Positions 3,290-63,323 of a stretch of DNA of 64,000 nucleotides are shown here, one piece after another. The notes under the pieces were generated by a model, which worked only from the letters and a program-made list of their open reading frames with translations, was not told the DNA's origin and ran no database searches. This DNA is from an uncultured archaeon (lineage in GTDB: Archaea; Aenigmatarchaeota; Aenigmatarchaeia; GW2011-AR5). The translations under genes were made by a program, and so were the position numbers. The DNA is taken from assembly GCA_964599215.1 (NCBI GenBank), contig CAZRDV010000002.1:36119-100118 (forward strand), given 5' to 3'. Each line of letters begins with the position of its first letter. Position 1 is the stretch's first letter.

Positions 3290-3397
3290 GCCCCTATAGT
3301 CTAATGGATAGGACGAAAGGTTGCGGACGGCCCTTTTAGAAAAAGCGCCTTTCACGGTAAACACCTTTTAGTTCGGGTTCGATTCCCGATGGGGGCA
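3290..3397 (+). tRNA. tRNA-Arg(GCG) with a 36-nt intron (3327-3362) at position 37/38
   Basis: Acceptor GCCCCTA/TGGGGGC, T-arm TCGGG-TTCGATT-CCCGA, anticodon stem AAAGG/CCTTT, loop TTGCGG|intron|A. The central helix TTGC/GTAA and 3-nt bulges fit a relaxed BHB. The gene starts 2 nt after the preceding stop codon. Confidence 0.8.
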
Positions 3398-14960: not shown

Positions 14961-15091
14961 GCCGAGATGGCGGAGTGGTCTAACGCGCATGCCTGGAACT
15001 CCCCTTTTTGCTGATGCAAAAAGTCGAGTGCCATATTAACGGATAGCATGTGAGCATTATGCTCTCGCAGGTTCGAATCCTGCTCTCGGCG
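14961..15091 (+). tRNA. tRNA-Ser(GGA), type II, with a 46-nt intron (14999-15044)
   Basis: Acceptor GCCGAGA/TCTCGGC, long variable arm GAGCA-TTA-TGCTC, T-arm GCAGG-TTCGAAT-CCTGC, anticodon stem CATGC/GCATG, loop CTGGAA|intron|A. Confidence 0.8.
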
Positions 15092-61622: not shown

Positions 61623-61709
61623 GGGTCTGTAGTTTAGCCAGGATAGAACGACCGGCTTCGGTTATTAGAAGATACCGGTAGATCGGGGGTTCGAATCCCT
61701 CCAGGCCCA
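61623..61709 (+). tRNA. tRNA-Arg(UCG) with a 12-nt intron (61662-61673)
   Basis: Acceptor GGGTCTG/CAGGCCC, T-arm GGGGG-TTCGAAT-CCCTC, anticodon stem ACCGG/CCGGT, loop CTTCGG|TTATTAGAAGAT|A. Central helix CTTC/GAAG with bulges GGT and ATA. Confidence 0.75.
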
Positions 61710-62861: not shown

Positions 62862-63057
62862 CTTATTCCTCTTCTTTAGGCATGTACCCAGGAGTCAATC
62901 AGATCGATTATTATTATGAATATAAGCAGGTACAGATTAAATGGTAAACTGTATGAGAATATCATACCTAGATATACAATAGTACCTATCGGTATTGTCC
63001 TGATAAATCTTGCCAAGGCTCCAAATAGAAATTTCATTATTATAACACCACATGCTA

Positions 63058-63132
63058 TGCTCCTGCTGGGATTTGAACCCAGGTCTCGGCCTCGAGAGGG
63101 CCGCATCCTTAACCGGGCTAGACTACAGGAGC
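63058..63132 (-). tRNA. tRNA-Glu(CUC), intron-less
   Basis: The reverse complement is GCTCCTG-TA-GTCTAGCCCGGTTAAGGAT-G-CGGCC-CTCTCGA-GGCCG-AGACC-TGGGTTCAAATCCCA-GCAGGAGC-A. Confidence 0.85.
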
Positions 63133-63194
63133 AATACTAATAATGAGGCAAAGATAAGTTTTTTAAATTATCTTTAAGGAGTATATCTAAAGAT

Positions 63195-63323
63195 GCGAGG
63201 ATACCCAAGCGGTCAAAGGGGCTAGGCTTAGGGCGCTAGCCGGCTAAAGGGGCTAGGATCAGGACCTAGTGTAAGAAACCTAGTGGCTTAGTGCCTTCGG
63301 GGGTTCGAATCCTCCTCCTCGCA
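63195..63323 (+). tRNA. tRNA-Leu(UAG), type II, with a 45-nt intron (63233-63277) in a textbook hBHBh' motif
   Basis: Acceptor GCGAGGA/TCCTCGC, anticodon stem CTAGG/CCTAG, loop CTTAGG|intron|A. The helices are CTTA/TAAG (central) and CGCTAG/CTAGTG (outer), with 3-nt bulges GGG and AAA. Confidence 0.85.

What the first reader, a model, noticed from the sequence alone, without database searches (positions are those of the whole stretch)
63195..63323. The tRNA-Leu(UAG) intron embeds a second, perfect anticodon arm (CAG) and a 12-nt copy of the upstream exon
The canonical fold is unambiguous. Anticodon stem CTAGG/CCTAG, central 4-bp helix CTTA/TAAG, outer helix CGCTAG/CTAGTG and 3-nt bulges GGG and AAA form an hBHBh' motif that yields anticodon UAG. 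The 45-nt intron, however, contains AAAGGGGCTAGG (63246-63257), an exact copy of exon nt 63215-63226. This is followed by CTAGG-ATCAGGA-CCTAG (63253-63269), a perfect 5-bp stem with a 7-nt loop carrying U33, anticodon CAG and a purine at position 37. In effect it is a complete alternative anticodon arm for tRNA-Leu(CAG), and it competes with the outer BHB helix. It is either a scar of recombination or duplication between two Leu isoacceptor genes, or a substrate for alternative processing that would give two isoacceptors from one locus. The latter would be reminiscent of split/tri-split tRNA logic in other archaea.
Basis: seen in the sequence. Interest (0 to 1): 0.6.

Follow-up and report, generated by a model that had tools for sequence, protein, structure and literature searches.

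The report
Two-anticodon tRNA-Leu gene with alternative cassettes
This archaeal tRNA-Leu gene carries two interchangeable anticodon pieces (UAG and CAG) between shared 5' and 3' parts, a layout kept in at least 18 related genes, so one gene probably makes two leucine tRNAs by alternative intron removal, though no RNA data exist yet.

Summary
Window 63195-63323 (+) is a tRNA-Leu(UAG) gene with a canonical 45-nt intron (63233-63277). The intron holds an exact 12-nt copy of exon sequence and a second anticodon loop reading CAG.

Comparison changes what the unit is. The conserved part is a 16-nt "cassette", tRNA positions 22-37 (AGGGGCUAGG-NUCAGG; window 63248-63263), not the full hairpin. I found it in 14 genes with this layout. 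Four more genes (from Aenigmatarchaeota-labelled or unclassified archaeal MAGs) carry the same two anticodons in two other layouts.

The cassette matches the anticodon-arm 5' half of stand-alone tRNA-Leu(CAG) genes in sister genomes. It is preceded by the same 3' splice-site motif as obligatory D-loop (21/22) introns in those lineages. One relative (L265) changed the stem in both cassettes and in the shared 3' strand together. No assembly showed both a dual gene and a stand-alone CAG gene. CUG is the commonest Leu codon in the window.

Best reading: mutually exclusive anticodon cassettes chosen by alternative bulge-helix-bulge splicing, a one-gene version of tri-split tRNA logic.

Caveats: there is no RNA evidence. 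In the window's subgroup (A32, H' UAAG) the second cut has a poor central helix (2 of 4 pairs). The rest of the window's genome is unseen.

The parts
63195..63323 (+). Whole tRNA-Leu gene (pre-tRNA, 129 nt)
   Evidence: Rfam RF00005 at 43.7 bits. Both in-silico spliced forms are called tRNA-Leu by ARAGORN, one (tag) and one (cag).
63160..63169 (+). A/T-rich TATA-like stretch (TTTTTAAATT) about 30 nt upstream; putative single promoter (inferred)
   Evidence: Read directly from the sequence. Not tested.
63195..63216 (+). Shared exon 1: tRNA positions 1-21 (acceptor 5' strand, D-stem 5' strand, D-loop). Includes H strand GGTC at 63211-14 and the first two bulge bases at 63215-16.
63217..63232 (+). 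Cassette U: positions 22-37 (AGGGG-CTAGG-CTTAGG). Anticodon UAG at 63229-31.
63233..63247 (+). Spacer 1 (GCGCTAGCCGGCTAA). CGCTAG 63234-39 is the outer helix strand of the canonical BHB. CTAGCC 63236-41 is complementary to GGCTAG of a cassette. GGCT 63242-45 is the H' strand, and AA 63246-47 are the first two bases of the 3' bulge of the putative D-loop intron.
   Evidence: The same ...GGCTAA|AGGGG motif ends an obligatory D-loop intron in L011.
63217..63247 (+). Putative intron A (31 nt): cassette U plus spacer 1, removed at position 21/22 to give the CAG form. Any register within the 12-nt repeat gives the same product.
   Evidence: H GGTC/GGCT pairs 4 of 4 (2 G-U), bulges are AAA and AAA, and h' is 2 bp, or 6 bp with a 5-nt bulge. 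The geometry is shared with bona fide 21/22 introns.
63248..63263 (+). Cassette C: positions 22'-37' (AGGGG-CTAGG-ATCAGG). Anticodon CAG at 63260-62.
   Evidence: Matches the stand-alone Leu(CAG) arm AGGGG-CTAGG-TTCAGG except at position 32.
63264..63277 (+). Spacer 2 / putative intron B (ACCTAGTGTAAGAA). CTAGTG 63266-71 is the outer helix strand, TAAG 63272-75 is the shared H' strand, and AA 63276-77 are bulge bases.
   Evidence: H for the CAG loop is only AUCA/UAAG, 2 of 4 pairs.
63233..63277 (+). Canonical intron (45 nt) at 37/38, removed to give the UAG form.
   Evidence: hBHBh' with the 5-bp anticodon stem, H of 4 Watson-Crick pairs, and h' of 6 bp.
63278..63323 (+). Shared exon 3: positions 38-73 (A38, anticodon-stem 3' strand CCTAG 63279-83, long variable arm, T arm, acceptor 3' strand, A73).

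Best explanation
The locus is a dual-anticodon tRNA-Leu gene transcribed as one pre-tRNA. Shared exon 1 (positions 1-21) and shared exon 3 (38-73) flank two mutually exclusive 16-nt cassettes (positions 22-37), the first with anticodon UAG and the second with CAG. In conformer U, the D-stem and anticodon stem use cassette U, and the canonical bulge-helix-bulge motif at 37/38 forms. The splicing endonuclease removes spacer 1 + cassette C + spacer 2 (63233-63277), giving tRNA-Leu(UAG). In conformer C, the D-stem 5' strand and the shared CCUAG pair with cassette C instead. A relaxed BHB forms in the D-loop (GGUC 63211-14 with GGCU 63242-45, 3-nt bulges AAA and AAA) and removes cassette U + spacer 1 (63217-63247). 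A second cut pair at 37'/38 removes spacer 2 (63264-63277), giving tRNA-Leu(CAG). Shown here: the anatomy, its conservation, its homology to real splice sites, and that both products are tRNA-like. Inferred: that both conformers are actually cut and ligated in vivo, and in what ratio. The likely origin is recombination between a Leu(UAG) gene with a 37/38 intron and a near-identical Leu(CAG) gene with a 21/22 intron.
For: 1) A genome scan that put no constraint on intron content found nine loci. All five that were not Altiarchaeota-type carry a second CAG loop. Further scans bring the total to 14 genes of the window's layout. These are window, L003, L004, L005, L011, L012, L013, L015, L017, L018, L024, L063, L106 and L265. 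The spacers have diverged, but the cassette AGGG[G/A]-stem-NUCAGG is retained.
2) Two other layouts encode the same pair. L158 has two 7-nt mini-exons, each with its own GGUAUGGCNAA|G 3' splice site. L002, L007 and L173 have a full hBHBh' (H GGCU/GGCC; h' CUUAGG/CCUAAG of 6 bp, 5 bp in L173) that would excise the UAG loop.
3) Stand-alone tRNA-Leu(CAG) genes in Aenigmatarchaeota-labelled and related MAGs read AGGGG-CTAGG-TTCAGGG-CCTAG, which is the same as cassette C.
4) The sequence in front of cassette C (CCY-RRCY-ANA|GGGG) is the 3' splice site of obligatory D-loop introns in L263, L233, L249 and L011. On 16 sequences this BHB shows 87.5% paired cells, against 27-57% when slid, and 0 of 500 shuffles reach it.
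5) L265 has UUAGG in both cassettes and CCUAA in the shared 3' strand. The scan that found it did not fix the stem.
6) In the U32 subgroup the shared H' strand (UGAG, GGAG or UGGG) puts G opposite positions 32 and 34, so it pairs with both CUUA and UUCA.
7) Among the 45 hits, no assembly has both a dual gene and a stand-alone CAG gene. The complete chromosome CP070801 has only the dual gene, and the complete chromosome CP070804 has a stand-alone gene.
8) Both in-silico products are called tRNA-Leu (tag and cag) in the window and 8 relatives.
9) The cloverleaf using cassette C is predicted to be 1.3-5.5 kcal/mol more stable than the one using cassette U. The D-loop helix appears in it without being imposed.
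10) CUG makes up 35.8% of Leu codons in the window's ORFs, against 9.3% for CUA.
Against: No RNA data exist for the window or any relative, so no spliced CAG form has been seen.

In the window, L018 and L013 (A32 subgroup) the shared H' is UAAG. This is perfect for CUUA but pairs only 2 of 4 with AUCA, so the 5' cut after G37' lacks a proper central helix.

The window's D-loop BHB has two G-U pairs in H and only 2 bp of h' in the 3-nt-bulge register.

The complementary-distribution result is limited by the search pattern and statistically weak. By my rough estimate only about one overlap would be expected by chance.

Part of the locus set was collected with a pattern that required CTAGGNTCAGG, so conservation of those 10 nt is partly by construction.

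Only 64 kb of the window's genome is visible. A stand-alone Leu(CAG) gene elsewhere cannot be excluded, and contigs of foreign or unassigned Leu(CAG) genes are present in the same samples.
Confidence: 0.6

Rival explanations
1. Non-functional relic. Cassette C is a leftover of unequal recombination or duplication between Leu(UAG) and Leu(CAG) genes. It now serves only as intron filler, and the gene makes only tRNA-Leu(UAG).
For: The canonical BHB for UAG is perfect in the window, while the CAG-side helix is 2 of 4 pairs. The A32 in cassette C is atypical compared with the U32 of stand-alone CAG genes. Gene conversion from cassette U could keep the first 12 nt identical.
Against: The loop NUCAGG, with U33, C34 and G37, is kept in every lineage even though the spacers are unalignable. 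Gene conversion would tend to erase the C34/U34 difference, yet no UAG/UAG duplicates were seen. Three different layouts keep the same pair. The stem co-varies in both cassettes and the 3' strand in L265. Window and L018 share 16 of 16 cassette positions despite fully diverged spacer 1.
Confidence: 0.25
2. Structural or regulatory decoy. The intronic copy competes with cassette U for the D-stem and anticodon-stem partners to tune folding or splicing rate, or it gives the excised intron a tRNA-arm-like shape. It never enters a mature tRNA.
For: Two conformers of similar predicted energy exist. In the window the copy overlaps the outer BHB helix.
Against: A decoy needs the stem strands but not a correct anticodon loop with U33, CAG and G37, nor a functional-looking 21/22 3' splice site in front of it. 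It also does not explain L158's paired mini-exons, each with its own splice sites.
Confidence: 0.1
3. Chance resemblance or assembly chimera of two near-identical Leu genes.
For: The UAG and CAG genes of related genomes are nearly identical outside the loop, which could confuse assemblers.
Against: Shuffle tests give 4 of 20,000 for the 12-nt match and 52 of 20,000 for the arm. Three independent runs give identical contigs. The same layout occurs in many assemblies, including a closed chromosome.
Confidence: 0.02

Closest known systems
Tri-split tRNA-Gly(UCC/CCC) of Caldivirga maquilingensis (Fujishima et al. 2009; summarised in PMC4033280)
   Same: Shared 5' and 3' tRNA pieces are combined with alternative anticodon-bearing pieces to give synonymous isoacceptors. 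Joining is by BHB recognition and the tRNA splicing endonuclease and ligase.
   Different: There the pieces are separate genes joined in trans through complementary leaders. Here everything lies in one contiguous gene, and the choice would be made by alternative folding of a single transcript.
Nanoarchaeum equitans split tRNA-Glu, where one 3' half serves two 5' halves (UUC/CUC) (Randau et al. 2005; PMC4033280)
   Same: One 3' half is shared by two anticodon-bearing 5' parts that differ at position 34.
   Different: That case is trans-splicing of separately transcribed halves split at 37/38. In the window both the 5' end (positions 1-21) and the 3' half are shared, in cis.
Multiple-intron archaeal tRNA genes with non-canonical (relaxed BHB) introns, as in Thermoproteales and DPANN (Sugahara et al. 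2007/2008; PMC4033280, PMC5829648)
   Same: Introns occur at 21/22, 30/31 and 37/38 with hBHBh', HBh' or hBH motifs. The relatives here carry obligatory introns at exactly these sites.
   Different: In known cases each intron is simply removed and one product results. Here one putative intron contains a complete alternative exon, so two products are possible.
Function-bearing tRNA introns (box C/D guide in the euryarchaeal tRNA-Trp intron; from my own knowledge)
   Same: The intron sequence is conserved because it has a job beyond being removed.
   Different: There are no C/D boxes here (no UGAUGA or CUGA in 63233-63277). The copy is identical to the exon, not complementary to it.

Membership tests
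Archaeal tRNA gene with a canonical BHB intron | Cloverleaf tRNA once the insert is removed | tested here: met
   Rfam tRNA at 43.7 bits. ARAGORN calls the spliced form tRNA-Leu(tag), 84 nt.
Archaeal tRNA gene with a canonical BHB intron | Intron at 37/38 flanked by a 3-4-3 bulge-helix-bulge with outer helices | tested here: met
   H CUUA/UAAG with 4 Watson-Crick pairs, bulges GGG and AAA, exon-side helix = the 5-bp anticodon stem, h' 6 bp.
Archaeal tRNA gene with a canonical BHB intron | Cleavage by splicing endonuclease and ligation by RtcB | not testable with these tools
   No RNA reads for this organism. No enzyme assay is possible.
Non-canonical D-loop (21/22) BHB intron | 4-bp central helix between D-loop GGNC and an intronic RRCY, with two 3-nt bulges | tested here: met
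   Window has GGUC/GGCU paired 4 of 4 (2 G-U) with bulges AAA and AAA. Across 16 sequences, helix 1 is 90.6% paired.
Non-canonical D-loop (21/22) BHB intron | Intronic outer helix h' abutting H | tested here: inconclusive
   The window has 2 bp in the 3-nt-bulge register, or 6 bp (GGCUAG/CUAGCC) with a 5-nt bulge. Relatives have 3-6 bp.
Non-canonical D-loop (21/22) BHB intron | Removal is required to give a functional tRNA (obligatory intron) | tested here: not met
   In the window, removal is optional: the unspliced D-loop already yields the UAG form. It is obligatory only in L011, L263, L233 and L249.
Split / tri-split tRNA | Pieces encoded by separate genes with complementary leader or trailer sequences | tested here: not met
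   All parts are contiguous within 129 nt behind one A/T-rich upstream element. It works like a tri-split tRNA but is not a member.
Split / tri-split tRNA | Alternative anticodon-bearing pieces share common 5' and 3' parts | tested here: met
   Cassettes 63217-32 (UAG) and 63248-63 (CAG) lie between shared 63195-216 and 63278-323.
Intron-encoded box C/D guide RNA | C (RUGAUGA) and D (CUGA) boxes plus antisense to a target | tested here: not met
   Neither box is present in 63233-63277. The copy is sense, not antisense, to the exon.

The most novel reading that the evidence does not exclude
A single archaeal tRNA gene makes two isoacceptors, tRNA-Leu(UAG) and tRNA-Leu(CAG). It does so by mutually exclusive anticodon cassettes selected through alternative bulge-helix-bulge folds. 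This would be protein-enzyme alternative splicing of a tRNA in cis. It would be conserved in three architectures across Aenigmatarchaeota-like DPANN archaea, and it could explain 'missing' tRNAs in such genomes.
Probability: 0.55. Interest if true: 0.9.

Novelty: new variant of a known kind. Interest (0 to 1): 0.8.

Why it matters
If both forms are made, this would be the first case I could find of alternative splicing by the tRNA splicing endonuclease producing two decoding specificities from one gene. Six full-text searches found no description of such a case.

It would link ordinary intron-containing tRNA genes to split and tri-split tRNAs. It would show that exon sharing among isoacceptors can evolve in cis by recombination between intron-bearing paralogues.

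It also offers a concrete reason why standard tRNA finders report incomplete tRNA sets in DPANN genomes, a problem noted in PMC5829648. Here ARAGORN missed the gene entirely, and covariance models see only the UAG form.

It also raises the possibility that the UAG:CAG ratio is set by RNA folding, in an organism where CUG is the dominant Leu codon.

Tried and rejected
- **RNA evidence.** Two RNA-run searches for relatives found nothing. The five RNA runs listed for the window share only about 10% of its words. The four I laid on it hold only foreign tRNA 3' halves or unspliced relatives, with no joints.
- **DNA joints.** The joints 63232>63278 in DNA runs come from other organisms' intron-less Leu(UAG) genes, which differ at 2-6 positions. 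They are not splicing.
- **14-nt in-register excision using the window's duplicated ACCTAGTG.** The only register with a 4-bp helix is CUAG/CUAG, and it has no flanking helices. I rejected it as a credible BHB (my own enumeration from the sequence).
- **30/31-type BHB (GGCU/GGCU) for intron A.** It recurs in the U32 group but fails in L017. I judged it weaker than the D-loop model.
- **The pseudo-D-arm hairpin (CCY...GGG) as cassette C's own D-arm.** Most of these loops lack G18G19, so I rejected this.
- **Box C/D guide.** No boxes are present.
- **Dual cassettes for other isotypes.** None were found in the held loci. Neighbouring tRNAs are Val, Ser, Gly and Glu, with no stand-alone Leu(CAG).
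- **Source organism.** A contig look-up gave only a Logan contig with no taxonomy. Assignment to Aenigmatarchaeota-like DPANN rests on the shared gene architecture.

Full report
**1. The observation.** The Rfam tRNA model matches window 63195-63323 (+) at 43.7 bits with a 48-nt insert in the anticodon loop. ARAGORN does not see the gene. Removing 63233-63277 gives an 84-nt tRNA-Leu(UAG). The 12-mer AAAGGGGCTAGG is at 63215-26 and 63246-57, and nowhere else in the 64 kb. CTAGG-ATCAGGA-CCTAG is at 63253-69. The copy is larger than stated, matching the spliced anticodon region at 24 of 26 positions. Shuffles of the intron give a 12-nt or longer match 4 times in 20,000, and such an arm 52 times in 20,000. 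Contigs from three DNA runs of salt-marsh metagenomes cover 63000-63312 without a difference.

**2. Relatives.** A genome scan anchored only on the exons, with free intron content, returned nine loci.
- Four loci from Altiarchaeota/Altiarchaeales-type MAGs have ordinary introns.
- All five others (Aenigmatarchaeota-labelled or unclassified archaeal MAGs) have a second loop reading CAG.

Two further scans and one metagenome scan bring the window's layout to 14 genes. These are window, L003, L004, L005, L011, L012, L013, L015, L017, L018, L024, L063, L106 and L265. L004 lies on CP070801, a closed 1.05-Mb chromosome.

Parsed side by side, they share this order:
- exon 1 ending in ...GGNC-AA
- cassette U: A-GGG[G/A]-stem-CUUAGG
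- spacer 1, ending in CCY-RRCY-AN
- cassette C: A-GGG[G/A]-stem-NUCAGG
- spacer 2, ending in a 4-nt H' and two bulge bases
- N38-CCUAG and the rest of exon 3.

The spacers differ in length and are essentially unalignable. The intronic CCTAG that completes the window's "perfect arm" is absent from all relatives. The conserved unit is therefore the 5' cassette (positions 22-37), not a whole arm. One caution applies. Two of the scans required CTAGGNTCAGG, so conservation of those bases is partly by construction. The exon-anchored scan did not require the cassette at all. The AGGG-N7-TCAGG scan required the TCAGG loop core but left the stem and position 32 free.

**3. What cassette C is.** The last scan also returned about 38 intron-less stand-alone tRNA-Leu(CAG) genes. 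In MAGs labelled Aenigmatarchaeota and related unclassified archaeal MAGs they read AGGGG-CTAGG-TTCAGGG-CCTAG-TGGCTTAGTGCC. That is the sequence of cassette C plus the shared exon 3. In such genomes the UAG and CAG isoacceptors differ essentially only in the loop. For example, L123 and L252 come from one Iainarchaeum assembly. L265 is a dual gene whose stem is UUAGG in both cassettes and CCUAA in the shared 3' strand. The pattern that found it left the stem free. This is the co-variation expected if both cassettes pair with that strand.

**4. How cassette U could be removed.** Several single-anticodon relatives carry obligatory introns in the D-loop at GGUCAA|...|AGGGG: L263, L233, L249, and an extra intron in the dual gene L011.
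- These introns end in ...CUGACCAC|A, ...GGUGGCCAG|A, ...GGGCUAC|A and ...CUGGCUAA|A.
- These endings match the motif in front of cassette C: CCUGACCAG|A in L005 and L265, CCCAACCAC|A in L004, and CCGGCUAA|A in the window.
- The implied motif has H = G18G19N20C20a pairing with RRCY, two 3-nt bulges, and h' formed by the cassette-U GGG(G) with the spacer CCY. The D-stem lies on the other side.
- On 16 sequences (13 dual genes and 3 obligatory introns) this structure is 87.5% paired, against 27-57% when the partner is slid by 1-3 columns. No shuffle out of 500 reaches the observed pairing.
- In the window, H is GGUC (63211-14) with GGCU (63242-45), two G-C and two G-U pairs, and the bulges are 63215-17 and 63246-48. 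h' is 2 bp, or 6 bp (GGCUAG/CUAGCC) with a 5-nt bulge.
- The product is the same for any cut register within the repeat: 63195-63216 + 63248-63263 + 63278-63323. ARAGORN calls it tRNA-Leu(cag).

**5. The second cut.** The 3' site is shared with the canonical intron.
- In the U32 subgroup, H' is UGAG, GGAG or UGGG, with G opposite positions 32 and 34. It therefore pairs with both CUUA and UUCA, which looks like a strand built to serve both loops.
- In the window, L018 and L013, cassette C has A32 and H' is UAAG. This is perfect for CUUA but gives only 2 of 4 pairs with AUCA.
- This is the weakest step for the window itself. Even so, the cassette is identical (16 of 16) between window and L018, although spacer 1 is entirely different. 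That argues for constraint.

**6. Other architectures.** All eight in-silico products from the four genes below are called tRNA-Leu (tag or cag). Obligatory 30/31 introns with the same H occur in the single-anticodon genes L126, L130, L212 and L223.
- **L158** shares the exon through G30. It then has two 7-nt mini-exons, GUUUAGG and GUUCAGG. Each is preceded by GGUAUGGC[G/C]AA|G, and both can pair with the same upstream AUACC and GGCU.
- **L002, L007 and L173** place CCUAAG (CUAAG in L173), the complement of the UAG loop, next to GGCC and a 3-nt bulge. This forms an hBHBh' that would excise the UAG loop at 30/31 and join the exon to G-CUCAGA.

**7. Need and distribution.** In 57 ORFs of the window, CUG is 35.8% of Leu codons and CUA is 9.3%. 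A C34 decoder is therefore expected somewhere in this genome. Among the hits, no assembly has both a dual gene and a stand-alone CAG gene. The closed chromosome CP070801 shows only the dual gene, and the closed chromosome CP070804 shows only a stand-alone gene. This result is limited by the search pattern and statistically weak, but its direction fits. No stand-alone Leu(CAG) lies near any dual gene in the fetched loci.

**8. Energetics.** With only the acceptor, D-stem and anticodon stem imposed, the cloverleaf that uses cassette C is predicted to be 1.3 kcal/mol more stable than the one using cassette U in the window. The gap is 3.1-5.5 kcal/mol in L004, L005, L017 and L024. The D-loop helix appears without being imposed. 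Both conformers are therefore plausible.

**9. Comparison with known systems.** Sharing common tRNA parts among isoacceptors is known only in trans: the N. equitans split tRNA-Glu and the C. maquilingensis tri-split tRNA-Gly (PMC4033280). Multi-intron genes with relaxed BHB motifs are known, and they correlate with broad-specificity endonucleases in DPANN. Incomplete tRNA sets in those genomes have also been noted (PMC5829648). Six full-text searches found no description of cis alternative splicing of a tRNA that yields two anticodons. I therefore rate this a new variant of a known kind. It works like a tri-split tRNA but fails that family's defining feature of separate genes.

**10. Verdict.**
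- The best explanation is a dual-anticodon gene with mutually exclusive cassettes (confidence 0.6). The confidence is somewhat higher for the gene family as a whole and lower for the window's A32 subgroup.
- The main rival is a conserved-looking relic (0.25).
- Nothing here is shown at the RNA level.

Noticed in passing
window 3290-3397, 14961-15091, 61623-61709: Three more intron-containing tRNA genes, with inserts of 39, 48 and 15 nt. Rfam finds them but ARAGORN misses them. The first (anticodon loop TTGCGGA) has CCTTTTAG at 3332-39 inside its intron, an 8-nt copy of the start of its 3' exon at 3364-71.
   Followed up: partly
window 63057-63133 (-): An intron-less tRNA-Glu(CUC) is transcribed divergently from the Leu gene. 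The two genes share a 61-nt A/T-rich spacer.
   Followed up: no
window, all ORFs of 150 aa or more: Leu codon usage is strongly skewed to CUG (35.8%) and CUU (24.2%). CUA is 9.3%.
   Followed up: partly
L130, L142, L144, L149, L169, L212 (tRNA-Leu genes of DPANN MAGs): Their anticodon loops read CUAAGGA, which gives anticodon AAG with A34. This is unusual for archaea, which normally use GAG for CUU/CUC.
   Followed up: no
L007, L002, L265, L256, L011, L263, L233, L249, L126, L223, L012, L013, L018, L015, L106, L063: tRNA-Leu genes of these Aenigmatarchaeota-labelled and related unclassified archaeal MAGs are heavily interrupted. Introns were inferred at 8/9, 15/16, 21/22, 30/31 and 37/38, and in the variable arm and T-loop, with up to four per gene.
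   Followed up: partly
L004 1648-2115: A tight tRNA cluster: Val(CAC), Val(GAC), Glu(UUC) with a 55-nt intron, then the dual Leu gene. Glu ends 1 nt before Leu starts, so the cluster is probably one transcript.
   Followed up: no
run X17 contig laid at window 63193-63232: A contig from a marine-sediment 'metatranscriptomic' run continues a Leu(UAG) 5' exon with ...ACAATATCCAGACTCCCTAAAGGTTCAGGA. This may be a further dual-cassette variant.
   Followed up: no
L173 and L011: In these genes the fold that would excise the UAG cassette lacks its intron-side helix until an upstream obligatory intron (at 30/31 in L173, at 21/22 in L011) has been removed. This would imply ordered, recursive splicing.
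   Followed up: partly
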